A DNA stretch of 64,000 bases, from contig OZ244821.1 in NCBI GenBank assembly GCA_965220325.1, positions 1,179,428 to 1,243,427 on the forward strand, read 5' to 3'. The notes beneath the pieces are model-generated. The model was not told the origin of the DNA. It searched no databases and saw only the letters and a program-made list of their open reading frames with translations. The stretch comes from Candidatus Poribacteria bacterium (GTDB taxonomy: Bacteria; Poribacteria; WGA-4E; WGA-3G). Shown here piece after piece: positions 14,102 to 60,672 of the stretch. Each line of letters begins with the position of its first letter. Within the stretch, counting starts at the first letter, position 1. Made by a program: the position numbers and the translations under genes.

Positions 14102-14407
14102 CTACACATCAGAACCGTTTTGTGGTACGCCGGGGGGCGGTTCTGTAAATTCCTCACTCCGCGCCGCCGCTTCTTTTCTTCGGCGATCCCATTCCACGAT
14201 TTCTTGATAAACTGCGGCCTTGCCTTCAGCAATGCCCTCGGCCTTGCCTTCAGCAATGCCCTCGGCTTTGGCAGCCTGAATCCGTTTTTCTCGCCTGTCA
14301 AGATACCAATCTGACAATAACATAATTACGTCAATGCCTCCTACTATCATTCCAGGATCATTCAATTCTCGATTTGGATATTGGTTTTGCTTTACGTAAG
14401 TGAACAC
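14102..14407 (-). CDS. hypothetical small protein with (AEGIAEGK) tandem repeats
   Basis: GTG start. C-terminal W..RRKEAA...E.F.EP.P tail is shared with 20812-21351. The N-terminal 16 codons are also found as a remnant at 21440-21497 next to a REP copy. Confidence 0.35.
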   Translation of the reverse strand: MFTYVKQNQYPNRELNDPGMIVGGIDVIMLLSDWYLDRREKRIQAAKAEGIAEGKAEGIAEGKAAVYQEIVEWDRRRKEAAARSEEFTEPPPGVPQNGSDV

Positions 14408-14647: not shown

Positions 14648-14775
14648 AGTGCTCGCGATAAATATAACGACTCTTTTGTAGGAGCGAGCTGCGCTCGCGA
14701 TCTTCCTCATGCCATCGCGATCTTCCTCATGCCATCGCGATCTTCCTCATGCCATCGCGATCTTCCTCATTCCAT
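14648..14775 (-). repeat. inverted REP copy (TGTAGGAGCGAGCTGCGCTCGCGATC) plus a x4 tandem 20-mer (CATCGCGATCTTCCTCATGC) flanking the RAYT 3' end
   Basis: Reverse complement of the REP core, oriented opposite to the REP array on the other side of the RAYT gene. Confidence 0.55.
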
Positions 14776-15240
14776 CTCATATTTACATCGCCAAAATGGA
14801 TAATCCCGCGCAGCCTTTACCAATCCTGCTCTCACCGGGTTATGATAACAATATTCGATAATAGCGTTCAACGATTCATCCCGTCGAATACCGTGATCAT
14901 GGTAAGCAGGTTGCCAAATCGAACCGCTACGATCCAAACACGCATTAATCTGTTTCGCTGTGTGGCTTTTGAAGGACTGTATGAGTCTTGATAATGTTTG
15001 TTTACTGCCGAGTTGGATAACGGTGTGGATATGATCTGGCATCACACAGATACAAAACCATCTGAGTCGATCATTGGTTTCGAGCCAATCAAATGACTGA
15101 AAAATGATGTCAGCGATTTTGGGAGTTGCAAGCAGCGGTTTTTTCTTAAGTGTCGTAAGCGTGAGATAATAGTAGGTACCGGGTATGGAGTATCTGCCTT
15201 TACGGAGTTGTCGGTGTCCGCGGGTGGGTGTTCGTTGCAT
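14767..15240 (-). CDS. REP-associated tyrosine transposase (RAYT, IS200/IS605-like HuH transposase)
   Basis: 157 aa. HuH motif VMPDHIHTVIQL, SIWQPAYHDHGIR, and catalytic-Tyr region EYCYHNPVRAGLVKAARDYPFW, collinear with E. coli TnpA_REP. Flanked by inverted REPs. Confidence 0.9.
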   Translation of the reverse strand: MQRTPTRGHRQLRKGRYSIPGTYYYLTLTTLKKKPLLATPKIADIIFQSFDWLETNDRLRWFCICVMPDHIHTVIQLGSKQTLSRLIQSFKSHTAKQINACLDRSGSIWQPAYHDHGIRRDESLNAIIEYCYHNPVRAGLVKAARDYPFWRCKYEME

Positions 15241-15274
15241 TTCATATTCCTATAAGTTAGAGATTGTTTTTAGT

Positions 15275-15608
15275 GCCAAGATCGCGAGCACAGGGTCAAG
15301 ATCGCGAGCATAGTGCCAAGATCGCGAGCGACAAGAAACACCGTTTTTGCTTGGGCGTTTCTTGTAAGCAAAAACACTCGCTCCTACACAAGAGACGTTA
15401 GAATAATCGCGAGCACAGCTCGCTCCTACACAAGAGACGTTAGAATAATCGCGAGCACAGCTCGCTCCTACACAAGAGACGTTAGAATAATCGCGAGCAC
15501 AGCTCGCTCCTACACAAGAGACGTTAGAATAATCGCGAGCACAGCTCGCTCCTACACAAGAGACGTTAGAATAATCGCGAGCACAGCTCGCTCCTACACA
15601 AGAGGTGT
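15275..15608 (+). repeat. REP tandem array (about 7 units; five near-identical 42-bp units AATCGCGAGCACAGCTCGCTCCTACACAAGAGACGTTAGAAT)
   Basis: Direct tandem repeats with no spacers, so not CRISPR. The first units carry a 45-bp insertion in the hairpin loop identical to that in copy 21497. Confidence 0.65.
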
Positions 15609-15821: not shown

Positions 15822-18800
15822 TTATTGCAACGATTTTAGTTCACCCCATGTCGTTGTCGCTTTACCAGTAGGGGAGACATGACCACGAAGGTGTGTGACC
15901 TTTAGAACCTGGATATCACCATCAATGGAGACATCTTGGATCTGGTAGTAGTAGACGACATTGGGTTTCGCGGTCTTGTCAACGAACTCGTAAGCCGTAC
16001 GTTCGCTCGTTGTACCTTGACCTGCGATTAACTGCGTATTAAGTTTCGTGAATTGACCGTCTCGGGTGTCACTCCGGAGGATGTTGAATCCTGCGTTGTC
16101 CAACTCAGATTCGGTGATCCAACGGATAGCGACAGAACCGTCGTCAAGACGTGTCGGACGGAACGTTGATAGTTCAACAGGAAGGACACCACCAGCGTTA
16201 TGGCCAGGGCTGCCTTGATCACTCGTGTGCCCGTAAGAGGTCGCATCAAGCGTCCGACCTAACTGTTGACTCATATCGAAGAACTTCCAAGCATTCTTGT
16301 CCATTCCGTCAATCGGTCCCATAGTATCCGATACACGAACCAGAGAGATACGGTTGCTATTAGCGCCTATAGTGTTAGGCAGCATCCAACTGATTGGCAC
16401 GAAGGACTGACCGTTTGAACGACGATCATTTTCCGGTGCTGGACCGAGGTTACCAATCGTATCAACAGCGTGATAGACGCTATCCTTTTCCCACGCTTCA
16501 ACCTTTATCTGGAACCCGTAAGTATTCAGTAGCAACTGACTACCTCTCCTATTGACCGAATGGATACGTTCCTTAGGAAGCATGGTATTGTTGCGAGCCG
16601 AACGGGCAACAATCAGATACGACTGTCTCGGTGGGATAACATGATTCGGGAGCCTGAAGGATATAGTCAGATCACCATCGAATGAACCAACGCCACCATC
16701 GGCACTATCCATGTCGTGGTTCGTGACAGTGATTCTCCAACCCTGGACACTGACAGCCTCCGTACGAGATGTATTGAAGAGCTCAATCCACTCTGGCAGA
16801 TTTCGAGGTCCCTGGTCTATCATTATTTCGCTAACGATCACCGAGCTACGTGTGGTCGCATCGAATCTGTTATGTCTGGCATGTGCGCTATGCGGATGTC
16901 CCGGTGTGCCACCGTTCTGTGCATTCGGCTTGGCTTTCCGTTTATAACCAATACCCGACCAACCGTTATCATCATCACGGAAAGCAACCTTATCGCTGTT
17001 GTTGTTATTCTCTTTCGACTTGGTGCCATCAATATCCGCGTGTTGACGACGTTGAACCGTTCCCACTGTCAATTTGTTGTTCTCACGGTTAGGTGCTGGG
17101 AAGTTACTCAAAGGCCAGAGATTCGTGAACCGGGTGCCATCATCAACTTTCAGATTAGGGTGATAACCCGCGATGTCTCGGATGTTGTTATCGCCGGTAG
17201 AACCGTTCCGATCCTGGCGATTTCGCAGGACTAAGACGAAGTTACTATGGTCGTCCGGCAGTTCGTTGAAGGTGTGCGCAACCATATAACGTGCCGAATT
17301 CTCGTTAACACCAGGCACATAGTTGGCTTCACCGGGTTTCGCAACTGTCCACGTATTTCTGACACCGAAATTCCAACCCGCGGCTAACGGATGGTTCGGA
17401 TCGCCTGTCGGATCCTTCTTAACAACGAGCAGAATACCACCCGCAGGGACGTTCCGATCTGCAGTCGTGAAATCAATCAAGTCATCATCCTTATCTAAAC
17501 CGGTTATCATCGTGACTTCATAGTTCTTGAGGTTAACGTTACCACCAGAGACGTTACGCAGTTCAATCCATTCGTAATCTGGATTGTCGTGGTTAGCGAT
17601 CTCATTGAAGATGATTGGACCACGATTGGCGTTGGTTGTTCCGACGAGTTGAACGCCAGCACGTTCTTTTTGACCCGGTGTGCCTCTATGGTTCGTTGCA
17701 TAGAGCTCCGTCGATTTCGTCCAATGACCGGATTGATGTCCTGGTCCACCTCCATTGCTCCGGTACATAGAGATGAACTCTACCATACCAGTGACCATAC
17801 CACTGCCATCAGTGGCACCACTGTTACCGTTCTGACCTTTACCAAGCACCCAGTCATCACCAGCACCAACGACGTTACTGATACGGTCAGTCTCTTCGGC
17901 AAGTGCCGGACGCCTTGCTTGACTACTAATTTTTATAGCAGAAATCGCGAAGTTTTTATCAGATGTACGGTTGTGGAGTTCAATCCACTGTTCACCGAGG
18001 TACGCAGCTCTGTTATCAATCTGACCTTGGTCAACAGCCCACATAACTTCGCTGAAGACGACTTGCAGACGGGTCGCACCCGTAACTTTCACATTGATCG
18101 TACCGCCAATGTCAAACAACTCTTCCAGGTCCGGCATCTCTTCTTCATCTGATACCTCTGACCAACTCACCACATCAGGTGAGAGATTACCGAAAGATGG
18201 CGGACTGTCTTTATCACGGACGACGACGAGGTATTTACCGGCAGCAAGCATCGCTGCTGCTGGTGGTGTTTTTGCTGTGACTGTTTCCTTCATACCGGTT
18301 GCTTTCATTGCTGAAACACTAACTTCTACACTTGTCGCACCAGCAGTAGGCGTAATTTCTACAGTCCACATCGTGTCCATTGTGGCATCTGCCGTAGCTG
18401 GCATAGGTGTGCCAGCGGTACCGCCCATAACCATAATATCAGCCATTGCTAACTCGACTTTTTCAGAAAAGTTCAAGGTGACGGTAAACTTTTTATCAAC
18501 CGTGGCAGTAGAATCTGCCAAGATCGTTACAGTCGGTGGTGACTCGGCTGTGACTTCTAGCTCAGCACCAGTTGCTTCCTTTTCTGCGACATCAACTACT
18601 ACACTTGCCGCATCAAGAACAGGGCTAATTTCTACAGTCCACATCGTGTCCATTGTGGCATCTGCCGTAGCTGGCATAGGTGTGCCAGCTTCACCGCCCG
18701 TAACGATAATATCAGCCTTTTCTAACATAACTGGCTTATTGAATGTCAAGGTAGCAGTAAACTTTTTATCAACCGTGGCATCGGGAGCAGTGATTGTCAC

Positions 18801-19550
18801 TGTCGGTAGGGTTACCGGATCAAACATATCAACGATGGTGAACTTCTCTCTCATTGACGCGGAATTAGCTGTACCGTAGGTGGTCGTTCCATCAACAAGC
18901 CCGGTTGGGACAAACCCTGCCTCCGCATCCACGGTAACCCAGACATCTATCGGAAGATCAGAATCCTCACCAGTCTGATTACCAAAGAGGCTTAGACCTA
19001 CTCTAAATGTAGCGAAGAAAACCTTGCTTTGCACAGATTCGTCAACACCAGTAGTAGCGGTATCATCTGCTACGCCTGTAATCGCAACACTGACTGCACC
19101 GTCACCAGAAGTATCAGCATATAAATCCTTAGAAGGAGCTGATTGTGCTGCGGCAGTAACTGTAAGGTCAATGTCATCAGATTCTATACGAGAACCACCA
19201 CTTACAGCATCATATAGATGATCACTAAATGTGATCTTCGCTGTAAACACCCCAGCAACAGTACCATCCGCCGCAAATGCAATAGGAGTCGCGTCGGGAT
19301 CAACCACAAGCCTCACATTATTACCGTCTACGGTAGAACCCATAATATGATCCACCAATTCAATAGATTCGACGGTTGGTGCAGGCAGGTGCTGTGCATC
19401 GTGCGCAGCTTTAGTGAGCGTAGCACCACCAGTAGCGGCATGTTGAAGTCCAGCAGTCGTGCCATCAAGATCATGCGCCATGGCAGGTATCGCTGCAAGT
19501 GCGAAAATTAAAATTAAACTTGCTAAGGAAAATGTCAATCGATTTGACAT
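15822..19550 (-). CDS. large secreted protein with three lamin-tail (LTD) domains and duplicated Ig-like modules
   Basis: Signal peptide MSNRLTFSLASLILIFALAAIPAMA. LTD motifs (...EWIELRN..., ...EWIELFN..., ...EQWIELHN...). Duplicated roughly 100 aa module TATLTFNKPVMLEKADIIVTGGEAGTPMPATADATMDTMWTVEI. C-terminus is ...GKATTTWGELKSLQ. Confidence 0.75.
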   Translation of the reverse strand: MSNRLTFSLASLILIFALAAIPAMAHDLDGTTAGLQHAATGGATLTKAAHDAQHLPAPTVESIELVDHIMGSTVDGNNVRLVVDPDATPIAFAADGTVAGVFTAKITFSDHLYDAVSGGSRIESDDIDLTVTAAAQSAPSKDLYADTSGDGAVSVAITGVADDTATTGVDESVQSKVFFATFRVGLSLFGNQTGEDSDLPIDVWVTVDAEAGFVPTGLVDGTTTYGTANSASMREKFTIVDMFDPVTLPTVTITAPDATVDKKFTATLTFNKPVMLEKADIIVTGGEAGTPMPATADATMDTMWTVEISPVLDAASVVVDVAEKEATGAELEVTAESPPTVTILADSTATVDKKFTVTLNFSEKVELAMADIMVMGGTAGTPMPATADATMDTMWTVEITPTAGATSVEVSVSAMKATGMKETVTAKTPPAAAMLAAGKYLVVVRDKDSPPSFGNLSPDVVSWSEVSDEEEMPDLEELFDIGGTINVKVTGATRLQVVFSEVMWAVDQGQIDNRAAYLGEQWIELHNRTSDKNFAISAIKISSQARRPALAEETDRISNVVGAGDDWVLGKGQNGNSGATDGSGMVTGMVEFISMYRSNGGGPGHQSGHWTKSTELYATNHRGTPGQKERAGVQLVGTTNANRGPIIFNEIANHDNPDYEWIELRNVSGGNVNLKNYEVTMITGLDKDDDLIDFTTADRNVPAGGILLVVKKDPTGDPNHPLAAGWNFGVRNTWTVAKPGEANYVPGVNENSARYMVAHTFNELPDDHSNFVLVLRNRQDRNGSTGDNNIRDIAGYHPNLKVDDGTRFTNLWPLSNFPAPNRENNKLTVGTVQRRQHADIDGTKSKENNNNSDKVAFRDDDNGWSGIGYKRKAKPNAQNGGTPGHPHSAHARHNRFDATTRSSVIVSEIMIDQGPRNLPEWIELFNTSRTEAVSVQGWRITVTNHDMDSADGGVGSFDGDLTISFRLPNHVIPPRQSYLIVARSARNNTMLPKERIHSVNRRGSQLLLNTYGFQIKVEAWEKDSVYHAVDTIGNLGPAPENDRRSNGQSFVPISWMLPNTIGANSNRISLVRVSDTMGPIDGMDKNAWKFFDMSQQLGRTLDATSYGHTSDQGSPGHNAGGVLPVELSTFRPTRLDDGSVAIRWITESELDNAGFNILRSDTRDGQFTKLNTQLIAGQGTTSERTAYEFVDKTAKPNVVYYYQIQDVSIDGDIQVLKVTHLRGHVSPTGKATTTWGELKSLQ

Positions 19551-20811: not shown

Positions 20812-21351
20812 TTAATTCGGCTGCTGCTCAGCAGGAGATGGTTCGTCAAAGGGTTCACCCGCAGCTTCAGCTGCTTCTTTTCGCTTGAACCATTCAATCC
20901 ATGCTTGATTTGCCATCTGGAACCCCTCGGCTTTGCCCTCGGCTTTGCCTTCCGCTTTGCCCTCGGCTTTGCCCTCGGCTTTGCCCTCGGCTATACCTTC
21001 CGCTATACCTTCCGCTTTACCCTCGGCATAAACTCGGTCTCTAAATAACTTTGCATACCCAAACATGATTTCCTCCAGTATATGTGAAAAAATGAAAAAG
21101 AAGCCAACAATCAACGCCATCAGAACAGACGTTCGCGTTAATAACGTTCCACCTAATGCCTCCAACCTCCAACCAAAGAGAACTTCAAGTAATAGATTCA
21201 GTATTACAAGACTTGAAAAAATCCGAGCGAATACATAGAACCATTTTCGCGGGATCCGGACTAACGATACATAGTCCTTATCATTTGATGCCATCAACTG
21301 AAACATCCTTTCAAAATAGGGCGTGATAAAAGGTGCAATACACAGGACCAT
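20812..21351 (-). CDS. small membrane protein with C-terminal (AEGK)n repeat tract
   Basis: Three predicted TM helices, then AEGKAEGIAEGIAEGKAEGKAEGKAEGKAEGKAEG from 12-bp tandem repeats, then a W..KRKEAAEAAGEPFDEP tail paralogous to 14102-14407. Confidence 0.5.
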   Translation of the reverse strand: MVLCIAPFITPYFERMFQLMASNDKDYVSLVRIPRKWFYVFARIFSSLVILNLLLEVLFGWRLEALGGTLLTRTSVLMALIVGFFFIFSHILEEIMFGYAKLFRDRVYAEGKAEGIAEGIAEGKAEGKAEGKAEGKAEGKAEGFQMANQAWIEWFKRKEAAEAAGEPFDEPSPAEQQPN

Positions 21352-26390: not shown

Positions 26391-27251
26391 CTATTCTGCT
26401 GATTTGAGTTTACCCCAGGTGGTAGCTGTTTTTCCTGCGGCATCAACTGCTAAAACACCTTCAATGCCACTGCCGAGTGCCTTAATTTCATCTGCGGAGA
26501 GCGGCACATTAAAGATGACAATTTCATCAATGATTCCGCTCCAATGACACCTTCCCTTACCGTTATTACAGCCTTCATCCGCGCCGATGTAGACGGCTTC
26601 AAAAGAATCCCAAGGTTGTCCGACTGCGTCTGCACTGTTCTGTAGTTCACCATCAACGTAGATATGGATTTTCGTTCCGTCCCACACGCCGACAAGGTGA
26701 ACCCACTCATTTACGGGAAGCGGGTCTCCGAGTGCTTCAAATCTTTCGGGTGCACTGTTGATACGATAATGGAACGAAGCTTGGTTAATTCTGCCGCCGA
26801 CGTTTTCATGGGCACCCGTGCCGAGTAGATACTGTGACCAACTCGAACAGCCTTGCCCTTTCCATATAACACATTTTCCGTTGGGCGGTGCCGTTGCCAA
26901 TACCCATGCGTGGATCGAGAACCCATTGGAGTCCTTGAAATTCAAGGCTGCCAAACTATCGGTATCCCTTTGCGTTCCGATACGCACATGGTTTTGTGCC
27001 GCAACGCCGCTGAACTCTATGCCGCCGCCGAATTTGGCTTTCGTCCATTTGACATCGCCAACAAACACACCGTCGCTACCGTTTCCAGAAAGATCTGTAA
27101 CGGTTTCACCTTTGCCTTCCTCAAATGTCCACATACCTTGAATCGTATTTTGAGCAATTTTTGCGTCACTTGTCGCTATCATTGCGAAACCGAGCACGGT
27201 AATAGTGCTAAGCGTGAGCATATAATTCAGATACCGTTTTGCGAAAAACAT
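26391..27251 (-). CDS. secreted LamG / concanavalin A-like lectin domain protein
   Basis: Signal peptide. LamG-like jelly-roll (WVHLVGVWDGTKIHIYVDGEL). C-terminal ...AAGKTATTWGKLKSAE matches the tail of the LTD protein. Confidence 0.6.
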   Translation of the reverse strand: MFFAKRYLNYMLTLSTITVLGFAMIATSDAKIAQNTIQGMWTFEEGKGETVTDLSGNGSDGVFVGDVKWTKAKFGGGIEFSGVAAQNHVRIGTQRDTDSLAALNFKDSNGFSIHAWVLATAPPNGKCVIWKGQGCSSWSQYLLGTGAHENVGGRINQASFHYRINSAPERFEALGDPLPVNEWVHLVGVWDGTKIHIYVDGELQNSADAVGQPWDSFEAVYIGADEGCNNGKGRCHWSGIIDEIVIFNVPLSADEIKALGSGIEGVLAVDAAGKTATTWGKLKSAE

Positions 27252-27961
27252 AATTTACCCTCCTGTATACTACTAAACTTTAATTTCACCCCAAACTCTC
27301 TGGCGACTTCTTCAAGTGTAACCATTTCCGCTTCTCCTGCCTCGTGATCGGCTACACGTTGCTCCAACTCTTCAGCAAACTCTGGGCGGAATTCTAACCC
27401 TTCGTCGGGATCGTAGTGGTAGTCCTCAAAGGCGACCTCCAAAAGCTCATAAGCGACGTAAAGTTCTCGAAACGCTAGATCTAACGCCCGATCTGTTGGG
27501 TTCTGCTTAAGCAGCGCGACGAGCCGCTCACGTACGGGGAAGAGCTCTTGAGCAACGAGGGAACGGAGCAGCGTCCGGTATTCGTCCGGTGGCAATTCGG
27601 TGATTTTTTTTTCTGGCATTGGATCGCTGTTTAAGTAAAGTCCCATCCTTCTGAAGTTCCGCTCTTTGAGCGTTGTTTTCCGGTTAGCGAGAACATATTC
27701 GCGTTGCCGTTTTAGTTTCTTGGTGAGCGGTGTATCCGGTGTGAGTCCATCAAGTGGGTCTTCCTCGTAACTCTCCAGCCAAAAGGCGAAATCCACATAG
27801 TCGCCGTGAAAATGAAAGAACTCCGCTTCCAATGCCTCTTGAGGACTATTTTTTCTTAGCAACGCCGCAAGCCGTTCCCGTGATTTAAACAGCTCCTCGT
27901 TGGCGAGGGTGTGAAGCAACTCTCGGAATTCAGTAGCGTTCATCTGTGTAATGTTTGGCAT
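27227..27961 (-). CDS. hypothetical protein with internal duplication (two ELF..RERL.ALL+.N modules)
   Basis: Start at MPNITQ with AGGGAG Shine-Dalgarno 7 nt upstream. The track ORF extends to 28105 without an RBS. Confidence 0.45.
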   Translation of the reverse strand: MPNITQMNATEFRELLHTLANEELFKSRERLAALLRKNSPQEALEAEFFHFHGDYVDFAFWLESYEEDPLDGLTPDTPLTKKLKRQREYVLANRKTTLKERNFRRMGLYLNSDPMPEKKITELPPDEYRTLLRSLVAQELFPVRERLVALLKQNPTDRALDLAFRELYVAYELLEVAFEDYHYDPDEGLEFRPEFAEELEQRVADHEAGEAEMVTLEEVAREFGVKLKFSSIQEGKLCFSQNGI

Positions 27962-39429: not shown

Positions 39430-40236
39430 ATGTGGGTCTTTATTTTTCTCCTCGGTTTAGCAATCGGTAGTTTCCTTAATGTCTGTATCTACCGTATCTC
39501 TTACCGTATCCTTCATCCTGATTCAAACGTGTCCATCCATTCTCCGCGTCGCTCTTTTTGTCCGGCATGCAACGCAACAATAAGTATTTATGACAACATC
39601 CCGGTTTTGAGTTATCTGCTTTTACGTGGCAAATGTCGGCATTGCAGCGCGTCGATTTCCGTACTTTATCCGTTGGTTGAGCTTGCCACGGCGGGGTTGT
39701 TCCTCGTGATGTACTATCGCTTTGGACTCACCCTCGAATTTCTGCTTGCACTTGTTTTCGTTGCGGTATTAGTACCAATTTTTGTCATCGATGCACAGCA
39801 CTATATCATTCCAAATGTCCTCATTGTCACTGGACTGATTCTCGGTTTCGGCATTGTCTGTGCAATCGCGTATCAACGCAGCGATGTCTGGTATCTGCTT
39901 ATCCGTCTCATCGGTGCTGTTGCGGGTGGGTCGGCGTTGTGGTTGGTCGCTGTTATCGGGAGCGCGGTCTTACGCAAAAAAGCGATGGGGGGCGGCGACA
40001 TCAAGTTGATGGCACTCATCGGATTGTTCCTCGGTGCCTGGCCCGAACTCGCGATGGTGATAGGTTTTTCTGCCTTCAGTGGCGCGATTGTCGGGACGAC
40101 ACTCATCGTCTCAGGCGTGAAAAGCCGTGAGAGTCCTATCCCTTACGGTCCGTTTCTTGCCGGTGCTGCGGTGCTTGTCCTCTTGTGGGGAGATAGCCTC
40201 TGGCGTTTGTACTTGCAATCTGTGGGGTGGCATTAA
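39430..40236 (+). CDS. prepilin peptidase (A24 family, PilD/GspO-like)
   Basis: GSFLNVCIYRI...SFCPACNATISIYDNIPVLSYLLLRGKCRHCS zinc motif plus multiple TM helices. Confidence 0.8.
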   Translation: MWVFIFLLGLAIGSFLNVCIYRISYRILHPDSNVSIHSPRRSFCPACNATISIYDNIPVLSYLLLRGKCRHCSASISVLYPLVELATAGLFLVMYYRFGLTLEFLLALVFVAVLVPIFVIDAQHYIIPNVLIVTGLILGFGIVCAIAYQRSDVWYLLIRLIGAVAGGSALWLVAVIGSAVLRKKAMGGGDIKLMALIGLFLGAWPELAMVIGFSAFSGAIVGTTLIVSGVKSRESPIPYGPFLAGAAVLVLLWGDSLWRLYLQSVGWH

Positions 40237-40312: not shown

Positions 40313-41656
40313 ATGAAAACCTTTTGCCTAATCATCTGCCTTTTGATGTTAGCCTTGAGCCAACAGGTTGCGTCCGCACAGCAGCAGCAAATTAAGGAAG
40401 AATCTGCTGAGGACTTTGTTAAATTAGGAATACCGCTCGAAGAAGCACTCACCAAAGCTACGTTTGTCGTTGAGTGGTTAAGCGGAGACGGAAGTACTGA
40501 AGTAAATTTTCAAGGTGAGAACGTAATCCGCACCCCTGATTACATAGAGCTCCGCTCTGATGAAGATGAACGGGGCAGGTCCAGTTATTATAGGGTCCTA
40601 CCTCAGCATACTGTTGAAGGAAATCGGTATATTTTTGTGCCGTTAGCCCAAAGTGGTGGCGGTTCTGGGGTCCTTTGGAATCTCCATATAGTAGATAAAA
40701 AAACGCTCCGAACTGTTGATACAGCCGGTCTCGGAGATCGCGCGAGGATTGAAAAGGTTGGCTTGGCTGTTCCTAATAGTGATACTGTCTCTATCACCTA
40801 TATTAAGCGGGAGGTTATTAAAGGTAAAGCCGTACATGACCTGAAAAAAGCAATAACGAAACACTTTCGGATGATACAAGGAACCCTTCAGGAGGTGGAA
40901 ACCCCTATGGGGAGCAACGCCGAGGCAATTACACCGAAAATATCCGAGGAGCCCGACGTTATTTTTCAATTGGTTGAGCGTCTACAATTCGCTGATGGCA
41001 CGGCAGTAAAATCCATCGCTAAAGACGATATTGACGCACTTCGGGACCGACCTATTCGCCTTGGTCCGAACGATCATATTGACGGTGTAACGCTAACAAA
41101 CGAGAAAGGCGAAGATATCCAAGTGCGAACGTGTAGAGAATATGACGATGCGCTTAAGCGTGGTTACTATGCCAACACGAATTTTGATGCACAAATGTCT
41201 ATGTGGTTTATGCATCAGTGTGGATTGTTGAACGCGTTAGAGGGGGCAGCTGCTCCTCGGCAAAGTTATATCTCAAATCCTAAAGTGGGAATAACGAATT
41301 TAGAGTTGATGCCTTTTTCCGTTTTTCCTTACGCGTCGGACGAGGAGATAAAATCAGGAGCGACATTTCAGACAAAGATCAAGAATGGGGAACTCAGAGT
41401 TGTAGAAAAAAATCAAAACACTCTGACGACTGAGGAAATCGATACGGGACAATTTTTACAGGAAGTGGTACGTGCTGACTTTAACGATGACGGTATTGAA
41501 GATATTTTTCTATTTGAGTATCATTATTCAATACGAGGCACATTCGGCTCTGGTGGAATTATTGTCTTGACCCGTAAATCGGTGGATGGGAAGTTTGAAG
41601 TTGTGCGTCCCTCCAACCCAGCCCAATCTTCCGGACATCCATATTGGTTTGATTGA
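40313..41656 (+). CDS. secreted hypothetical protein (447 aa)
   Basis: Signal peptide MKTFCLIICLLMLALSQQVASAQQ. GGAGG RBS. No recognisable domain. Confidence 0.5.
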   Translation: MKTFCLIICLLMLALSQQVASAQQQQIKEESAEDFVKLGIPLEEALTKATFVVEWLSGDGSTEVNFQGENVIRTPDYIELRSDEDERGRSSYYRVLPQHTVEGNRYIFVPLAQSGGGSGVLWNLHIVDKKTLRTVDTAGLGDRARIEKVGLAVPNSDTVSITYIKREVIKGKAVHDLKKAITKHFRMIQGTLQEVETPMGSNAEAITPKISEEPDVIFQLVERLQFADGTAVKSIAKDDIDALRDRPIRLGPNDHIDGVTLTNEKGEDIQVRTCREYDDALKRGYYANTNFDAQMSMWFMHQCGLLNALEGAAAPRQSYISNPKVGITNLELMPFSVFPYASDEEIKSGATFQTKIKNGELRVVEKNQNTLTTEEIDTGQFLQEVVRADFNDDGIEDIFLFEYHYSIRGTFGSGGIIVLTRKSVDGKFEVVRPSNPAQSSGHPYWFD

Positions 41657-56283: not shown

Positions 56284-59200
56284 CTATTTCCGTATCAACA
56301 GTTTCCGGGTCGCAAAATAATTGCCCGCTTTGAGGGTGTAGAAATACACGCCTGTCGCAACCTTTTCACCGAGCTGATTCCGTCCATCCCAATGCGCCGC
56401 CTTGCTCCGACTTTGGTAGATACCCGCAGGCTGGTGCCCCAATCGCAACTTCCGCACGATCCGCCCCCGCACATCGTAGATCGTTAGCGTAACTTCTGCC
56501 GGTTTGGCGAGCTGATACGGTATCCACGTTTCAGGGTTGAACGGGTTCGGGAAGTTAGTCAAGAGTGCAGTATTATCAGGAATCACAAGAGATGTTTCAA
56601 GGGATGGCGCAGCACCTACGACATCCGTGACATTGATGGTAACGGTAATACTATCAGTCCCACCCTTCCCATCAGAGACAGCGACTTTGACCGTATAAGT
56701 GCTCTTCGTTTCAGCATCAAGTTCAGCGTTAGTTTGGAGTTGACCGGATGATTTAACAATACGAAACGAATCCGCATCCGTGCCACCGAGATGATAAGTG
56801 AGTGTATCCCCGGTATCCTCATCTGTGGCAGCGACCACACTGCCGATGTTTGTACCGGAAGCGGTGTTTTCTGCTACAGAACGGGTTGTGCTATCACCAT
56901 CGCTAAACACAGGGGCGTTATTATTTGCTACTGCAGGAATTGTAATATCTAAGGTTAAACCTGGATGACCTTCAATTACCTCAATTGCTGCCTTGAGTCG
57001 ACGGAGGGGACCATAATCCAAAATCTGATTCCCCGACAGACCAAGTTCTGTGAGTGCGGTCAAGTTTTCAAGCGCAGAAACATCGCTTATGGAATTGTTA
57101 TTCAGAGCGAGTTCTGTGAGTGCGGTCAAGTTTTCAAGGGCGGATATATCACTGATCCAATTGTTAGACAGAATGAGTCGTTTCAGTGAAGTCAAGTTTT
57201 CAAGGGCGGATATATCGCTTATGGGATTCCAATGCAGATTGAGGTCTGTGAGTGCGGTCAAGTTTTTAAGGGCGGATATATCGCTTATGGAATTCCAATC
57301 CATCTTGAGGTTTGTGAGTGCGGTCAAGTTTTTAAGGGCGGATATACTGCTTATGGAATTACGAGACAGATCGATCCAATTCAGTGCGGTCAAGTTTTTA
57401 AGGGCGGATATATCGCTTATGGAATTGTAACTCAGAAAGAGCTGTTTCAGTGAAGTCAAGTTTTTAAGTGTGGATATATCGCTTATGGAATTATTATGCA
57501 GATATAACCATTCCAGTGCGGTCAAGTTTTTAAGGGCGGATATATCGCTTATGGGATTGAAACCCAGAAAGAGCCATTTCAGTGAAGTCAAGTTTTTAAG
57601 GGCGGATATATCGCTTATGGAATTGTGTTTCAGAACGAGGTTTGTCAGTGAAGTAAATCCATCAAAATCACCAACCTTTAGTGCCGTTATTCTTCTGTAG
57701 TCAATGCTAAGGGAAGTTATTGCAGCAAGATGGGCTGCAGTCACATCGGCGGCATTATTAACATTCGGTACCGCAGCAACAATTGCATCTCGCACCTGTC
57801 GTGTGCGTTCATTGACCGGAGTAAATTCGGATACATCCGTCACATTTATGGTAACGGCGATGCTATCACTCCCGCCGCTGCCATCAGAGACAGACACTGA
57901 CACGGAATAAGACGACTTGCTTTCATAATCCAAGGCGGCACTCGTCTGCAGTTGCCCAGAGGTCGAAACAATACGAAACGAACTTGCATCCGTGCCCCCC
58001 AAAGTATACGTGAGTGTATCGCCGCTATCCGTATCTGTCGCAGCAATAGCACTGCCGATGTTTCTGCCGGAGGGAGTGTTCTCTGCGATGGAGCGCGTCG
58101 TCTCGGTGCCATCGTTGAAGACAGGTGCGTTGTTAGGAGCCGCACTCACTTGAATTGAGAACGTCAGCGTGGCTGAAAGTGTTCCATCACTCGCCGTATA
58201 GGTATAGGTCGCTGAAGCTGTCTCAGTTGTAGGTGTTCCAGAAAGCGTGCGCGTTGAAGCCGTAAAGGTCAACCCGGCAGGGAGTGCTGGTGTCACCGTG
58301 TATGTGATCGTATTGCCAGCATCAACATCGGTTGCTTCAGGCAAGGCCACCGACGTGATTGCTGTTCCTGCGGTGGCAGAAATATTACTGATGCTTGCTC
58401 CCGCACTGAACGCTGGTGCCTCGTTGACGTTCGTGACATTAATCGTGACGGCGATGCTATCACTCCCGCCGTTTTTATCAGAAACAGATACTGACACAGA
58501 ATAAGACGACTTGCTTTCGTAGTTTAGGGCAGCACTAGTTCGGAGTTGCCCGGATGTGCCGACAATACTGAACAAGGAGGCATCTGCGCCACCTAAAGTA
58601 TAGGTGAGTGTGTCGCTGGTATCCGCATCTGTCGCAGCAACGGGACTTCCGATGTTTGTACCTGAACGGGTGTTCTCAGCAACAGACCGAGTAGTGCTGG
58701 TGCCATCGTTGAATGCGGGGGCGCGGTTCTCATTCACATCTGTAATATTGATGGTGACGAGGACGCTATTGACAAGACCCCCGCTATCCGTCGCGCGGAC
58801 AGCCAGATTGTTGTAAGTGCGCTTCGTTTCATAGTCAAGAGCCGCGCGGGTTTGCAGCTGCCCTGTCCTTGCGTCAATACGAAATACGTTTTTATCGCCC
58901 CGCTGAAGCGAATAGGTCAGTGTATCGCCACTATCGGGGTCTGTGGCCTGGAAGGGCCTGCCGATGTTTCTGCCGGAAGCCGTGTTCTCTGGGACGGAGA
59001 GTGTGACCCTTCCAAAAGTGCTGAAACTCGGTTTCTCATTGACATCTGTAACACTGATCGTGACGGCGATGCTATCTGTGCCGCCATTGCCGTCGGAGAC
59101 AGAAACCGTGACAGCGTAGGAGTTGTCTGCTTCATGGTTCAGGGCAACATTGGTTTGCAGCTGCCCGGAGGTGGAAACAATGCGAAACGAGGACGCATCC

Positions 59201-60672
59201 GTGCCACCAAGCGTATACGTTAGTGTGTCGCCGGTATCCACATCTGTCGCAGCAATAGCACTCCCTATGTTTGTACCTAAAGCGGTGTTCTCAGCAACAG
59301 ACCGCGTCGTGCTAGTGCCTTCACTGAATGCGGGAGCACGATTCTCATTGACATCTGCAACGTTGACGGTGACGGCGATACTATCACTCCCACCATTACC
59401 ATCAGAAACAGACACCGTCACGGAATAAGATGATTTCGTTTCATAATCTAACGCAGCACTCGTCTGCAGCTGTCCTGATGTAGAAACAATGCTAAATGAA
59501 GACGCATCCGTACCACCAAGCGTATACGTTAGTGTGTCGCCGGTATCCGCATCTGTCGCAGCAATAGCACTCCCGATGTTTGTGCCAGATGCCGCGTTCT
59601 CCGCAACAGACCGCGTCGTGCTGGTGCCGCTTGTGAACACGGGTGCGCGGTTCTCACTGACATCCGTGACCTTGATGGTGACGAGGACGCTATTGACAAG
59701 ACCCCCGCTATCCGTCGCGCGGACGGCCAGATTGTTGTAAGTGCGCTTCGTTTCATAGTCAAGTGCCGCGTGGGTTCGCAGCTGCCCTGTATTTGCGTCA
59801 ATACGAAACGCTTTCTTATCGCCCCGCTGCAGCGAATAGGTCAGTGTATCCCCGCTATCGGGGTCTGTTGCTTGGAAGGGAGCACCGATATTTGTGCCGG
59901 AAGCCGTGTCCTCTTCGACGGAGAGTGTGACCCTACCCGAAATGTTGAAACTCGGTTTCTCATTGACATCTGTAACATTGATCGTGACGGCGATGCTATC
60001 TGTGGCGCCATTACTATCGGAGACAGAAATCGATACCGAGTAGGACGACTTGCTTTCATAGTTTAGGGCAGCACTGGTTCGGAGTTGGCCCGATGTGCTG
60101 ACAATACTGAACGATGCCGCATCCGTGCCACCCAAAGTATAGGTGAGTGTGTCGCCGGTATCCGCATCTGTTGCAGCAATAGGATTCCCGATGTTTCTGC
60201 CAGAAGCCGTGTTCTCAGCAACAGATCGCGTGGCACTGTCGCCATCGGTGAAGGTCGGAGCGTTGTTTCCAGCCGTTTCATCAACATCCGTGACATTGAT
60301 TGTGACGCTAATGACACGTCTACCCCCATTGCCATCGTCGACAAAAATGGCAAACGAGTAGACGCTCTTCGTTTCATAGTCCAAGGGTGCTTTGGTGCGG
60401 ATTTGACCGGTATTGCTGTCGAGAGTAAATGCTGTTCCATCCAGCCACCCCTTAGTATAGGTGAGTGTATCGTTATCTGCATCCGTTGCAGCGACCGGTG
60501 CGCCGATGTTTACCCCGGCCGGTGTGTTCTCTGCAATAGAGCGTATTGTGCGGTTACCGTCTATGAATACAGGTGCACTGTTCTCATCGGCATAACCTAA
60601 TATATGTGTGCAAAAAATTATAAAAGCGGTTAGGAAAATTGATACGATATACTTTTTGTTTTTAAATAGCAA
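56284..60672 (-). CDS. giant secreted adhesin: about 12 cadherin-like repeats, a central leucine-rich-repeat block, and a T9SS-type C-terminal sorting domain
   Basis: Signal peptide. Repeated APVF.DG..TTRSVAEN...NIG..IAATD.D.GDTLTY.LGG.D...F.I....GQL.T..ALDYE modules. LRRs (LTSLK.LFL..N.ISDISALKNLTAL...). The C-terminus NFPNPFNPETWIPYQLAKPAEVTLTIYDVRGRIVRKL...WDGRNQLGEKVATGVYFYTLKAGNYFATRKLLIRK matches the Por/T9SS CTD. Confidence 0.8.
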   Translation of the reverse strand: MLFKNKKYIVSIFLTAFIIFCTHILGYADENSAPVFIDGNRTIRSIAENTPAGVNIGAPVAATDADNDTLTYTKGWLDGTAFTLDSNTGQIRTKAPLDYETKSVYSFAIFVDDGNGGRRVISVTINVTDVDETAGNNAPTFTDGDSATRSVAENTASGRNIGNPIAATDADTGDTLTYTLGGTDAASFSIVSTSGQLRTSAALNYESKSSYSVSISVSDSNGATDSIAVTINVTDVNEKPSFNISGRVTLSVEEDTASGTNIGAPFQATDPDSGDTLTYSLQRGDKKAFRIDANTGQLRTHAALDYETKRTYNNLAVRATDSGGLVNSVLVTIKVTDVSENRAPVFTSGTSTTRSVAENAASGTNIGSAIAATDADTGDTLTYTLGGTDASSFSIVSTSGQLQTSAALDYETKSSYSVTVSVSDGNGGSDSIAVTVNVADVNENRAPAFSEGTSTTRSVAENTALGTNIGSAIAATDVDTGDTLTYTLGGTDASSFRIVSTSGQLQTNVALNHEADNSYAVTVSVSDGNGGTDSIAVTISVTDVNEKPSFSTFGRVTLSVPENTASGRNIGRPFQATDPDSGDTLTYSLQRGDKNVFRIDARTGQLQTRAALDYETKRTYNNLAVRATDSGGLVNSVLVTINITDVNENRAPAFNDGTSTTRSVAENTRSGTNIGSPVAATDADTSDTLTYTLGGADASLFSIVGTSGQLRTSAALNYESKSSYSVSVSVSDKNGGSDSIAVTINVTNVNEAPAFSAGASISNISATAGTAITSVALPEATDVDAGNTITYTVTPALPAGLTFTASTRTLSGTPTTETASATYTYTASDGTLSATLTFSIQVSAAPNNAPVFNDGTETTRSIAENTPSGRNIGSAIAATDTDSGDTLTYTLGGTDASSFRIVSTSGQLQTSAALDYESKSSYSVSVSVSDGSGGSDSIAVTINVTDVSEFTPVNERTRQVRDAIVAAVPNVNNAADVTAAHLAAITSLSIDYRRITALKVGDFDGFTSLTNLVLKHNSISDISALKNLTSLKWLFLGFNPISDISALKNLTALEWLYLHNNSISDISTLKNLTSLKQLFLSYNSISDISALKNLTALNWIDLSRNSISSISALKNLTALTNLKMDWNSISDISALKNLTALTDLNLHWNPISDISALENLTSLKRLILSNNWISDISALENLTALTELALNNNSISDVSALENLTALTELGLSGNQILDYGPLRRLKAAIEVIEGHPGLTLDITIPAVANNNAPVFSDGDSTTRSVAENTASGTNIGSVVAATDEDTGDTLTYHLGGTDADSFRIVKSSGQLQTNAELDAETKSTYTVKVAVSDGKGGTDSITVTINVTDVVGAAPSLETSLVIPDNTALLTNFPNPFNPETWIPYQLAKPAEVTLTIYDVRGRIVRKLRLGHQPAGIYQSRSKAAHWDGRNQLGEKVATGVYFYTLKAGNYFATRKLLIRK

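What the first reader, a model, noticed from the sequence alone, without database searches (positions are those of the whole stretch)
15822..15860. Two unrelated secreted proteins end in the same tail ...GK(A/T)TTTWG(E/K)LKS-x-x: candidate novel C-terminal sorting/anchoring tag
- **Shared tail.** The LTD/Ig protein (15822-19550) ends VSPTGKATTTWGELKSLQ. The LamG lectin-like protein (26391-27251) ends VDAAGKTATTWGKLKSAE.
- **Context.** Both have N-terminal signal peptides and otherwise unrelated domain content.
- **DNA versus protein identity.** The encoding DNA is only about 68% identical over 40 nt, with many synonymous differences, while 9 of 12 residues are identical. So the similarity is maintained at the protein level and is not a shared DNA repeat.
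- **Not a known tag.** The tail is not a recognisable T9SS CTD, PEP-CTERM, LPXTG or GlyGly-CTERM signal.
- **Interpretation.** It may mark substrates of a dedicated processing or export system, such as a sortase- or exosortase-like enzyme, or a lipid anchor.
Basis: seen in the sequence. Interest (0 to 1): 0.6.

Follow-up and report, generated by a model that had tools for sequence, protein, structure and literature searches.

The report
Poribacteria-wide C-terminal tag on secreted proteins
The shared tail is real: it is an undescribed 17-20-residue C-terminal peptide, seen almost only in the uncultured phylum Poribacteria, that is attached to hundreds of otherwise unrelated exported proteins and most likely tells the cell envelope where to put them.

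Summary
**Observation: confirmed and much enlarged.**
- Both window proteins end in the same motif three residues before the stop codon.
- Consensus: [L/A]-[A/P]-V-[E/D]-[P/A]-x-G-K-[L/A]-x-T-T-W-G-x-[L/I]-K, followed by 1-6 variable, mostly basic residues.

**Distribution**
Of these, 109 are labelled Poribacteria.
- All 133 matches lie 1-12 codons before a stop.
- A tail-only profile finds 664 protein clusters (50% identity) among 1.84 billion representatives. All of the best 150 matches are at the extreme C-terminus.

**Carriers**
- 101 of 105 full-length carriers have signal-peptide-like N-termini.
- Carrier domains include LamG (67 of 105), PA14, LTD, beta-propellers, ankyrin and lyases.
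- Large adhesin-like proteins carry an FN3 module just before the tail.

**Nature of the tail**
- AlphaFold leaves it unpacked on the LamG protein.
- Third codon positions vary freely, so selection acts on the peptide.
- No Pfam or NCBIfam model and no paper matches it.
- It has no hydrophobic anchor, so it is not a sortase- or exosortase-type signal.
- A genuine T9SS type A domain sits on another protein in the same window.

**Verdict:** a new kind of C-terminal targeting or anchoring tag. The reading machinery is unidentified.

The parts
15825..15881 (-). C-terminal tag of the LTD/Ig protein: HVSPTGKATTTWGELKSLQ. The stop codon is at 15822-15824.
   Evidence: Translation. The tail profile is built from and matches this segment.
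15888..16175 (-). FN3-fold beta-sandwich module just before the tag. It is the conserved C-terminal 'stalk' of the large tail-bearing protein family.
   Evidence: AF2 gives pLDDT above 90 for residues 14-109 of the last 130 aa. The top Foldseek PDB matches are FN3 domains. Its 139 sequence homologues (120 inspected) almost all end in the tag. No Pfam or NCBIfam hit.
15822..19550 (-). Whole carrier protein A, 1242 aa: signal peptide, two Big_12 Ig-like regions, LTD domains, FN3 module, tag.
   Evidence: ORF list. Pfam LTD 2.6e-22 and Big_12 1.2e-07.
19476..19550 (-). Signal peptide MSNRLTFSLASLILIFALAAIPAMA. It carries the family-conserved 'TFSL[AT]SL' motif.
   Evidence: Sequence. The motif is present in 53-63 of 94 large tail-bearing cluster representatives and in 0 of 101 small ones.
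26394..26450 (-). C-terminal tag of the LamG protein: AVDAAGKTATTWGKLKSAE. The stop codon is at 26391-26393.
   Evidence: Translation. The tag is kept in 113 of 120 homologues. K274, W279 and K283 are invariant; V269, T277, T278 and G280 are at least 90% conserved. AF2 pLDDT is below 50 for residues 269-286.
26481..26954 (-). LamG / concanavalin-A-like lectin domain of carrier protein B.
   Evidence: Pfam Laminin_G_3 9.8e-24, residues 100-257. The AF2 domain is confidently folded.
26391..27251 (-). Whole carrier protein B, 286 aa: signal peptide (27162-27251), LamG domain, short linker, tag.
   Evidence: ORF list. Homologues are named 'LamG domain-containing protein [Candidatus Poribacteria bacterium]'.

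Best explanation
**What it is**
- An autonomous, lineage-specific C-terminal targeting or anchoring peptide found on exported proteins of Poribacteria.

**Proposed course of events**
1. Carrier proteins cross the inner membrane through Sec, using classical N-terminal signal peptides.
2. Their last 17-20 residues stay flexible and exposed. The motif is [L/A]-[A/P]-V-[E/D]-[P/A]-x-G-K-[L/A]-x-T-T-W-G-x-[L/I]-K plus 1-6 residues, with net charge about +2.7.
3. One shared envelope component reads this linear motif. It could be a receptor, pilot or anchor protein, or a translocon.
4. That step fixes the final location of a large, diverse set of lectin-like and adhesin-like proteins. The most probable outcome is retention at, or delivery to, the outer membrane or cell surface.

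**Shown**
- The motif and its strictly C-terminal position.
- Its independence from the preceding domain.
- Its restriction to signal-peptide proteins and to this phylum.
- Purifying selection on the peptide.
- The lack of packing onto the LamG domain.

**Inferred**
- That a common partner reads it.
- That the outcome is localisation.
- Non-covalent docking seems more likely than cleavage or transpeptidation, because there is no membrane-spanning segment to hold the substrate at a membrane-bound enzyme.
For: **Position**
- All 133 genomic pattern matches lie 1-12 codons before a stop, mostly 2-4.
- All of the best 150 of 664 profile hits end 0-4 residues from the protein end.

**Domain independence**
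- The Pfam census of 105 carriers gives Laminin_G_3 67, Pentaxin 6, RhaB_D2 5, PA14 4 and LTD 3. PD40 propellers, He_PIG, ankyrin and a polysaccharide lyase also occur.
- Carriers fall into at least 8 separate sequence clusters.

**Export**
- 101 of 105 full-length carriers have signal-peptide-like N-termini. The four exceptions look like mis-called starts.

**Exposed linear motif**
- The AF2 LamG model has pLDDT above 90 for the domain and below 50 for residues 269-286.

**Selection on the peptide**
- Codon position 3 identity is 0.40, against 0.83 for positions 1+2, and all synonymous codons are used.
- Tag columns are invariant or at least 90% conserved in a LamG family spanning 49-88% identity.

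**Phyletic restriction**
- 109 of 119 genome stretches are labelled Poribacteria, 8 are 'uncultured bacterium', and 2 are short contigs in bins of other phyla.

**A separate class from known signals**
- No known sorting-signal model hits the 105 carriers.
- In the same window, TIGR04183 hits another protein above its cutoff.
- Six T9SS-type CTDs occur in the sample, and none is on a protein with the tag.

**Published context**
- Kamke et al. 2014 (PMC3909097) state that a secretion pathway for poribacterial surface and eukaryote-like proteins 'remains to be revealed'.
Against: - No partner, receptor or enzyme was found. The recurrent neighbours of tag genes are only the expanded poribacterial families: Gfo/Idh/MocA, PhyH, TPR, WD40, FG-GAP and the enolase superfamily.
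- No experiment or proteomic datum bears on localisation or processing.
- The number of residues after the motif varies from 1 to 12. That argues against recognition anchored on the free carboxylate.
- No precedent is known for a short non-hydrophobic C-terminal peptide that directs Sec-exported proteins in a diderm.
- Structural hints conflict. AF2 draws a weak helix over W-G-x-L-K. The core instead has strand-type amphipathicity: moment 0.54 against 0.29+-0.01 for shuffles at 160 degrees, and none at 100 degrees.
Confidence: 0.45

Rival explanations
1. Docking strand or peptide for supramolecular assembly. The tag inserts by beta-augmentation or donor-strand complementation into a scaffold or filament subunit. 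Many different lectin modules would then be plugged onto a common surface structure, in the manner of a cellulosome or a pilus tip.
For: - The core K-L-x-T-T-W-G-x-L-K has strong strand-type amphipathicity, about 23 SD above shuffles at 160 degrees, and is rich in Thr.
- 49 of 105 carriers share the LamG part of TafC, the tip adhesin of haloarchaeal Tat-fimbriae, which assemble by donor-strand exchange (PMC11821415).
- The best PDB match of the FN3+tag model is an entry titled 'myomesin:obscurin-like-1 complex' (5fm5), followed by 'C-terminally extended domain My4 of human myomesin' (5fm4). From my own recollection, not checked here, that C-terminal extension completes a partner's Ig domain in trans.
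- Tag genes cluster in tandem: 48 extra relaxed tags lie in the same 8 kb loci.
Against: - The hydrophobic alternation expected of donor strands (i, i+2, i+4) is imperfect. Position +2 is polar and variable.
- No acceptor subunit with an incomplete fold was identified.
- AF2 does not predict a strand for the tag.
- TafC similarity is limited to the LamG domain, at 29 bits against a cutoff of 410.
Confidence: 0.2
2. Direct, receptor-free anchor. The basic, Trp-containing tail binds anionic envelope lipid or LPS, or peptidoglycan, and so tethers the proteins non-covalently. A variant is covalent linkage through one of the two near-invariant lysines.
For: - Net charge from K(-5) to the end averages +2.7.
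- Trp is invariant. K(-5) is 98% conserved even though the relaxed search did not require it. K(+4) was required by both search patterns but is also invariant in the independently collected LamG family (K283).
- The tail is unpacked and exposed.
- A precedent from general knowledge: Lpp is cross-linked to peptidoglycan through its C-terminal Lys.
Against: - Sequence conservation is far more specific than charge-plus-Trp membrane binders need. V-E-P-x-G-K and T-T-W-G are nearly fixed.
- Only three hydrophobic residues are present.
- The conserved lysines are not terminal, unlike in Lpp.
Confidence: 0.12
3. Substrate tag of a sortase-, exosortase- or rhombosortase-like transpeptidase, or of another C-terminal processing enzyme. 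The enzyme would cleave the tail and attach the protein covalently.
For: - The tag is strictly C-terminal, lineage-specific and carried by many paralogous substrates, as with PEP-CTERM or LPXTG.
- A small-residue/Pro stretch (A-V-E-P-x-G) upstream could serve as a cleavage site.
Against: - The defining tripartite layout (motif, hydrophobic helix, basic cluster) is absent. Only 1-6 polar residues follow the motif.
- No sorting-signal model hits.
- No peptidase or sortase family recurs near tag genes.
Confidence: 0.1
4. Cargo-loading peptide for an encapsulin-like or other protein compartment. This idea rests on my recalled Family 1 encapsulin signal consensus (roughly [LIV]-G-S-L-[KR]), which I did not check.
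For: - Many tags read T-W-G-S-L-K, which resembles that recalled consensus.
- The tag is C-terminal, short and disordered.
- Poribacteria are discussed for compartmentation (title of PMC3909097).
Against: - 101 of 105 carriers have Sec-type signal peptides, whereas encapsulin cargo is cytoplasmic.
- Carriers are lectin- or adhesin-type domains, not typical cargo enzymes.
- The tag marks hundreds of families rather than 1-4 genes next to a shell gene.
- No paper links encapsulins with Poribacteria.
Confidence: 0.03
5. No signalling role. The tail would be a structural terminal element, or a relic inherited by descent or spread as a DNA cassette.
For: - Two large families, LamG and FN3-terminated, account for most carriers.
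- In the FN3 context the AF2 tail pLDDT is 69-77, so some packing is possible.
Against: - The same 17 residues follow unrelated folds.
- The tag is unpacked on LamG.
- Synonymous sites are randomised, so it is not a DNA cassette.
- Its conservation equals that of the domain cores.
- The only tail-less LamG homologues (7 of 120) are truncated or altered at the C-terminus.
Confidence: 0.07

Closest known systems
T9SS type A C-terminal sorting domain (TIGR04183 / PF18962 Por_Secre_tail)
   Same: A C-terminal unit shared by many unrelated Sec-exported surface proteins of one lineage. It is present in the same genome: window protein 56284-60672 scores 39 bits against a cutoff of 23.
   Different: The T9SS CTD is a folded beta-sandwich domain; the match here spans 87 residues (1374-1460), on a 72-position model. 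The tag is 17-20 residues and is predicted unpacked. No TIGR04183, FlgD_ig or CHU_C hit occurs on any of 105 tag carriers. The two C-termini are mutually exclusive in the sample. The FN3 module before some tags matches FN3 domains, not T9SS CTDs.
PEP-CTERM/exosortase, LPXTG/sortase and GlyGly-CTERM/rhombosortase sorting signals
   Same: A short signature motif at the extreme C-terminus of many paralogous secreted proteins, with lineage restriction, recognisable in silico.
   Different: Those signals have a hydrophobic transmembrane helix plus a basic cluster after the motif, and a dedicated membrane enzyme. The tag has neither a helix nor an identified enzyme.
Secretin S-domain / pilotin pairing (general knowledge, not tested)
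   Same: A short C-terminal peptide on a Sec-exported protein that is disordered until a partner lipoprotein binds it and determines outer-membrane targeting. This fits the low-confidence helix AF2 draws over W-G-x-L-K.
   Different: The S-domain serves one protein, the secretin. The tag serves hundreds of families. There is no sequence similarity and no pilotin candidate.
Dockerin-cohesin attachment in cellulosomes (general knowledge, not tested)
   Same: A common C-terminal module attaches many different carbohydrate-binding or carbohydrate-active proteins to a shared scaffold. Tag carriers are mostly lectin-like (LamG, PA14) or lyase and rhamnosidase modules.
   Different: A dockerin is a roughly 70-residue folded calcium-binding domain. 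The tag is a linear peptide, and no cohesin-like receptor was found.
Encapsulin Family 1 cargo-loading peptide (consensus recalled, not tested)
   Same: A short disordered C-terminal peptide with a ...G-S-L-K-like core.
   Different: Tag carriers have signal peptides and adhesin or lectin domains, and they are far too numerous.
YSIRK signal peptide paired with LPXTG in Gram-positive surface proteins (general knowledge)
   Same: In the large FN3+tag family, a conserved specialised signal-peptide motif (MSNRLTFSLASL...) is paired with the conserved C-terminal signal around a variable middle.
   Different: The motifs are unrelated, the organism is a diderm, and the small LamG carriers lack this signal-peptide motif (0 of 101).

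Membership tests
T9SS type A CTD (TIGR04183 / PF18962) | Significant match to the CTD profile at the C-terminus | tested here: not met
   No hit at E<=10 for the last 130 aa of protein A. None among the 105 carriers. Positive control in the same window: 39 bits against a cutoff of 23 on the 1462-aa cadherin/LRR protein.
T9SS type A CTD (TIGR04183 / PF18962) | Folded beta-sandwich CTD (the family profile is 72 positions long) | tested here: not met
   The tag is 17-20 aa with pLDDT below 50 on the LamG protein. The beta-sandwich before the tag in protein A matches FN3 domains, and no T9SS CTD is among the 50 listed matches.
T9SS type A CTD (TIGR04183 / PF18962) | T9SS machinery (SprA/Sov, PorV, PorU, PorK-N) encoded in the genome | not testable with these tools
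Kamke 2014 reported no Por genes in single-cell genomes. Complete MAGs now exist and should be checked.
PEP-CTERM / LPXTG / GlyGly-CTERM type sorting signals | Tripartite layout: motif, hydrophobic transmembrane helix, basic cluster | tested here: not met
   Only 1-6 (rarely up to 12) mostly polar or basic residues follow the motif. No such NCBIfam model hits the 105 carriers.
PEP-CTERM / LPXTG / GlyGly-CTERM type sorting signals | Co-occurring dedicated sortase, exosortase or rhombosortase | tested here: inconclusive
   None is among the recurrent neighbours in 119 loci. Such enzymes need not be linked, and whole genomes could not be profiled.
Encapsulin Family 1 cargo-loading peptide | Cargo is cytoplasmic, with no signal peptide | tested here: not met
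   101 of 105 carriers have signal-peptide-like N-termini.
Encapsulin Family 1 cargo-loading peptide | Cargo gene adjacent to an encapsulin shell gene | not tested
   The top neighbour clusters are unrelated families. No explicit shell-gene search was run.
Outer-membrane protein beta-signal (general knowledge) | Terminal aromatic residue closing a beta-barrel | tested here: not met
   The last residues are variable and mostly S, A, R, K or Q. Carriers are soluble LamG, FN3 or propeller folds.
T1SS C-terminal secretion signal (general knowledge) | One-step export from the cytoplasm, hence no N-terminal signal peptide | tested here: not met
   Signal peptides are present.
LamG / concanavalin-A-like lectin (PF13385), carrier B | Profile match above the gathering score and a folded beta-sandwich | tested here: met
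   84.7 bits against a cutoff of 27.6. AF2 mean pLDDT 86.5.
Fibronectin type III fold, module before the tag in carrier A | Structural match to FN3 domains | tested here: met
   Foldseek probability 1.00 and TM 0.5-0.7 to titin, myomesin and Ihog FN3 domains. No Pfam sequence match.
TafC tip adhesin of haloarchaeal Tat-fimbriae (NF052521) | Full-length match above the cutoff, including the N-terminal donor-strand pilin-like domain | tested here: not met
   29 bits against a cutoff of 410. Only profile positions 151-359, the LamG part, align (PMC11821415).

The most novel reading that the evidence does not exclude
The tag is the address label of a protein-sorting pathway that has not been described. 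In that pathway a short, non-hydrophobic C-terminal peptide directs Sec-exported proteins to, or across, the outer membrane through machinery unique to Poribacteria. This would be mechanistically distinct from both T9SS and sortase-class systems. It would account for how this phylum displays its large repertoire of lectin-like and eukaryote-like proteins.
Probability: 0.35. Interest if true: 0.8.

Novelty: new variant of a known kind. Interest (0 to 1): 0.62.

Why it matters
**For Poribacteria**
- They are dominant, uncultured sponge symbionts. How their surface and 'eukaryote-like' proteins reach their destination was called an open question in 2014 (PMC3909097).
- A phylum-specific tag carried by at least 664 protein clusters defines a large surface or secreted proteome that can be recognised computationally. 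From 2 genes in 64 kb I estimate it may mark a few percent of genes.
- It gives a concrete handle (peptide, profile, diagnostic tryptic fragment) for finding the machinery by phylogenetic profiling, co-folding screens or metaproteomics.

**More generally**
- It would add a sorting signal of unusual design: short, basic, with no membrane anchor and no folded domain.
- It coexists with T9SS-type domains in one genome, which suggests two parallel routes.

Tried and rejected
1. **Neighbourhood search for a processing enzyme.** I clustered all ORFs of 90 aa or more from 119 loci plus the window. Recurrent non-tag neighbours are only expanded poribacterial families, identified by eye from motifs. 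One real conserved operon exists in 6 loci: two tag genes followed by a lipoprotein that looks like an FGE-sulfatase-domain protein (the domain was not confirmed with Pfam). It is synteny of one family, not general machinery.
2. **Third homology search with a tail-only alignment.** The second returned only fragments of 84 aa or less.
3. **PDB sequence search with the tail profile.** The one hit is insignificant: 8dj2_A 'Adhesin', N-terminal HVSPKGKLATT, E=0.19. No paper mentions that entry.
4. **Literature.** The motif strings, Poribacteria+encapsulin and Poribacteria+T9SS gave nothing relevant.
5. **DNA-level repeat.** Rejected.
6. **Third WG.[LIVM]K match at 27279-27293(-).** It lies in a 12-codon ORF and is taken as chance.
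7. **Two non-poribacterial labels.** L024 is labelled Pseudomonadota and L082 Deltaproteobacteria. Both are short MAG contigs, and L024 comes from the same sample series as a Poribacteria bin. L024's GC of 0.49 is in the poribacterial range. Mis-binning is likely but not proven.
8. **Helix against strand.** This stays unresolved.
9. **Per-genome count.** It could not be measured.
Full report
**1. The observation**

The two ORFs exist as described.
- Protein A is 15822-19550(-), 1242 aa. Pfam finds LTD and Big_12. It ends GHVSPTGKATTTWGELKSLQ*.
- Protein B is 26391-27251(-), 286 aa. Pfam finds Laminin_G_3. It ends LAVDAAGKTATTWGKLKSAE*.
- In the six-frame translation of the window, WG.[LIVM]K occurs three times. 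Two are these tails, each three residues before the stop of an ORF with a classical signal peptide. The third lies in a 12-codon ORF and fits chance.
- The DNA of the two tails differs at many synonymous sites.

**2. The tail is a family feature of both proteins**

- The last 130 aa of protein A retrieved 139 metagenomic proteins. One is named Candidatus Poribacteria. Of the 120 listed, nearly all end in GK[LA]TT[T/I/R]WG[ED][LI]K plus 2-4 residues.
- Protein B retrieved more than 120 homologues at 48-98% identity. Those that carry names are called 'LamG domain-containing protein [Candidatus Poribacteria bacterium]'.
- 113 of those 120 keep AVDAAGK[TI][TA]TTWG.LK directly after the LamG domain. 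The other 7 are truncated or altered at the C-terminus.
- In that family K274, W279 and K283 are invariant. V269, T277, T278 and G280 are at least 90% conserved, which equals the conservation of the domain core.

**3. The tail is autonomous and strictly C-terminal**

- All 133 matches lie 1-12 codons before a stop codon, mostly 2-4. From the information content of the pattern I estimate only about 50 chance matches in the whole collection, and those would not sit next to stops. Effectively every match is a true tail.
- A relaxed search in the same loci found 48 more tails. Tail genes therefore often sit together.
- The derived consensus is L-A-V-E-P-x-G-K-L-[T/A]-T-T-W-G-x-[L/I]-K-x-x-(x). V(-10) is 92% conserved and K(-5) 98%.
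- A 32-position tail profile was searched exhaustively against 1.84 billion cluster representatives. It gave 664 clusters at E<=0.001, and all of the best 150 matches end 0-4 residues from the protein end.
- This count is an underestimate. In my test set only 131 of 171 true tails would pass that threshold.

**4. Who carries it**

- Of 105 full-length carriers taken from the genome loci, 101 have signal-peptide-like N-termini. The four exceptions look like mis-called starts.
- Pfam census of those 105:

| Pfam family | Carriers |
|---|---|
| Laminin_G_3 | 67 |
| Pentaxin | 6 |
| RhaB_D2 | 5 |
| PA14 | 4 |
| LTD | 3 |
| PD40 propeller | 2 |

- He_PIG, ankyrin, a polysaccharide lyase and others occur once each. 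Thirty-two families matched in all, and some carriers (for example the first one) had no hit.
- Local clustering shows at least eight unrelated tail-bearing sequence families.
- No known sorting-signal model hits any carrier.
- The large carriers (700-2200 aa) form a family with a conserved signal peptide (MSNRLTFSLASL...), a variable middle and an FN3 module just before the tail. Protein A belongs to it.

**5. Phyletic range**

- 109 of the 119 genome stretches are labelled Poribacteria.
- Eight are unnamed 'uncultured bacterium' MAGs.
- Two are short contigs in bins labelled Pseudomonadota and Deltaproteobacteria. Mis-binning is likely but unproven.
- One carrier locus, L036, comes from a MAG labelled casp150-mb.226. 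I read that label as a water-column (possibly Caspian Sea) sample, which I did not verify. If correct, the tag is not confined to sponge symbionts.

**6. Physical nature of the tail**

- AF2 folds the LamG domain confidently (pLDDT above 90). It leaves residues 269-286 below 50, with only a nominal helix at 278-285.
- For the last 130 aa of protein A, AF2 gives a beta-sandwich at residues 14-109. The tail there scores pLDDT 69-77, with a helix at 123-128.
- Foldseek places the sandwich among FN3 domains (myomesin My4, titin, Ihog). No T9SS CTD is among the 50 listed matches.
- The 10-residue core has strong strand-type amphipathicity: 0.54 against 0.29+-0.01 for shuffles at 160 degrees. It has none at the helical angle of 100 degrees.
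- Net charge from K(-5) to the end averages +2.7.
- Across the 133 genomic copies all synonymous codons for Gly and Thr are used. Third-position identity is 0.40, against 0.83 for positions 1+2. Selection therefore acts on the peptide, not on the DNA.

**7. What it is not**

- **Not a T9SS CTD.** There is no profile hit.
  - The model works on this genome. The 1462-aa cadherin/LRR protein at 56284-60672(-) matches TIGR04183 above its cutoff (39 bits against 23) and also FlgD_ig.
  - Six such CTDs occur in the sample, and none is on a protein with the tag.
- **Not PEP-CTERM, LPXTG or GlyGly-CTERM type.** No hydrophobic helix follows the motif.
- **Not an outer-membrane beta-signal.** The terminal residues are variable and non-aromatic.
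- **Not a T1SS signal or an encapsulin cargo peptide.** The carriers have signal peptides.
- **Not described in the literature searched.** The motif strings are absent.
- Kamke et al. 2014 noted TIGR04183-like domains on poribacterial eukaryote-like proteins. They found no Por genes and called the pathway unresolved.

**8.

- Clustering the neighbours of tail genes in 119 loci shows only the expanded poribacterial families: Gfo/Idh/MocA, TPR, FG-GAP/ASPIC, PhyH, enolase superfamily, WD40 and ABC ATPase. I identified these by eye.
- One conserved operon appears in six loci: two tail proteins followed by a lipoprotein that looks like an FGE-sulfatase-domain protein. It is synteny of one family.
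- The window itself offers no candidate. Its genes include Fic, WD40, AnmK/NamZ/beta-lactamase-fold (cell-wall recycling) proteins, a two-component system, a prepilin peptidase and a MauG-like peroxidase.
- The machinery remains unknown.

**9. Most likely mechanism**

- The properties fit a post-Sec address label. The tail is exposed, linear, basic, strictly C-terminal, independent of the preceding domain, restricted to this lineage and found only on exported proteins.
- I judge non-covalent recognition by a shared envelope partner most likely (0.45).
- Rival explanations and confidences:

| Rival | Confidence |
|---|---|
| Strand-docking or assembly peptide | 0.20 |
| Direct lipid, LPS or peptidoglycan anchor | 0.12 |
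| Sortase-like covalent processing | 0.10 |
| No signalling role | 0.07 |
| Encapsulin-like cargo tag | 0.03 |

- Every functional step is inferred. Only the sequence anatomy and the distribution are shown.

**10. Novelty and verdict**

- The feature is real, large in scale and not described in any library or paper searched.
- It belongs to the general class of C-terminal sorting or anchoring tags. Its design resembles no defined class.
- Limitations: there is no per-genome count, no partner and no experimental evidence. The organism is uncultured.

Noticed in passing
window 56284-60672 (-); CTD at about 56293-56553: A 1462-aa cadherin / Big_9 / LRR protein ends in a genuine T9SS type A sorting domain (TIGR04183, 39 bits against a cutoff of 23; also FlgD_ig). 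Its last residues are ...GVYFYTLKAGNYFATRKLLIRK. Poribacteria were reported to lack Por/T9SS genes (PMC3909097). Five more such CTDs occur in other poribacterial loci, and none is on a protein with the TTWGxLK tag.
   Followed up: partly
window 19476-19550 (-), and the N-termini of P0277-P0410: The large FN3+tag proteins share a strongly conserved signal peptide, M-S-N-R-L-T-F-S-L-A-S-L-(I/V)-L-I. It is present in 53-63 of 94 large cluster representatives and in 0 of 101 small carriers. Conserved ends around a variable middle recall the YSIRK/LPXTG pairing.
   Followed up: partly
window 14695-15604: An IS200-like Y1 transposase (14767-15240, -) is flanked by 20-bp tandem repeats at 14695-14776 (4.1 copies) and 15275-15329 (2.8 copies). 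A perfect 42-bp x 5.4 array lies at 15377-15604, just downstream of protein A's stop. The layout resembles a REP/RAYT arrangement.
   Followed up: partly
window 14102-14407 (-) and 20812-21351 (-): Two small paralogous ORFs carry (A-E-G-K/I)n repeats, seen as a 12-bp repeat x 8.7 at 20924-21027 and a 24-bp repeat at 14215-14270. They have similar Pro/Glu-rich ends and flank protein A. Function is unknown; the only Pfam hit is a weak Yae1_N match.
   Followed up: no
L009:230-2876, L012:4249-6767, L056, L069, L091, L108: A conserved three-gene operon occurs in six poribacterial genomes. Two paralogous ~270-aa tag-bearing proteins with no Pfam domain are followed by a lipoprotein that looks, by eye, like an FGE-sulfatase (SUMF1)-domain protein.
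   Followed up: partly
L024 (JAPPIL010000222.1) and L082 (JAFDHL010000343.1): Tag-bearing ORFs sit on short contigs binned as Pseudomonadota and Deltaproteobacteria. These are probably mis-binned poribacterial contigs, but rare transfer outside the phylum is possible.
   Followed up: partly
105 tag carriers from L001-L119: 49 of 105 weakly match NCBIfam TafC, the tip adhesin of haloarchaeal Tat-fimbriae, through the LamG part only. The small poribacterial LamG proteins are a very large paralogous expansion, with 89 members in one cluster within about 1 Mb of sampled DNA.
   Followed up: partly
window 39430-40236 (+) and 40313-41656 (+): A prepilin peptidase (Peptidase_A24) lies next to a 447-aa signal-peptide protein that has no family match in Pfam or NCBIfam.
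   Followed up: no
PDB 8dj2 chain A, residues 6-16: An 'Adhesin' chain begins HVSPKGKLATT. This resembles the first half of the tag (HVSPTGKATTT in protein A), but the match is not significant (E=0.19) and lacks the W-G-x-L-K half.
   Followed up: no
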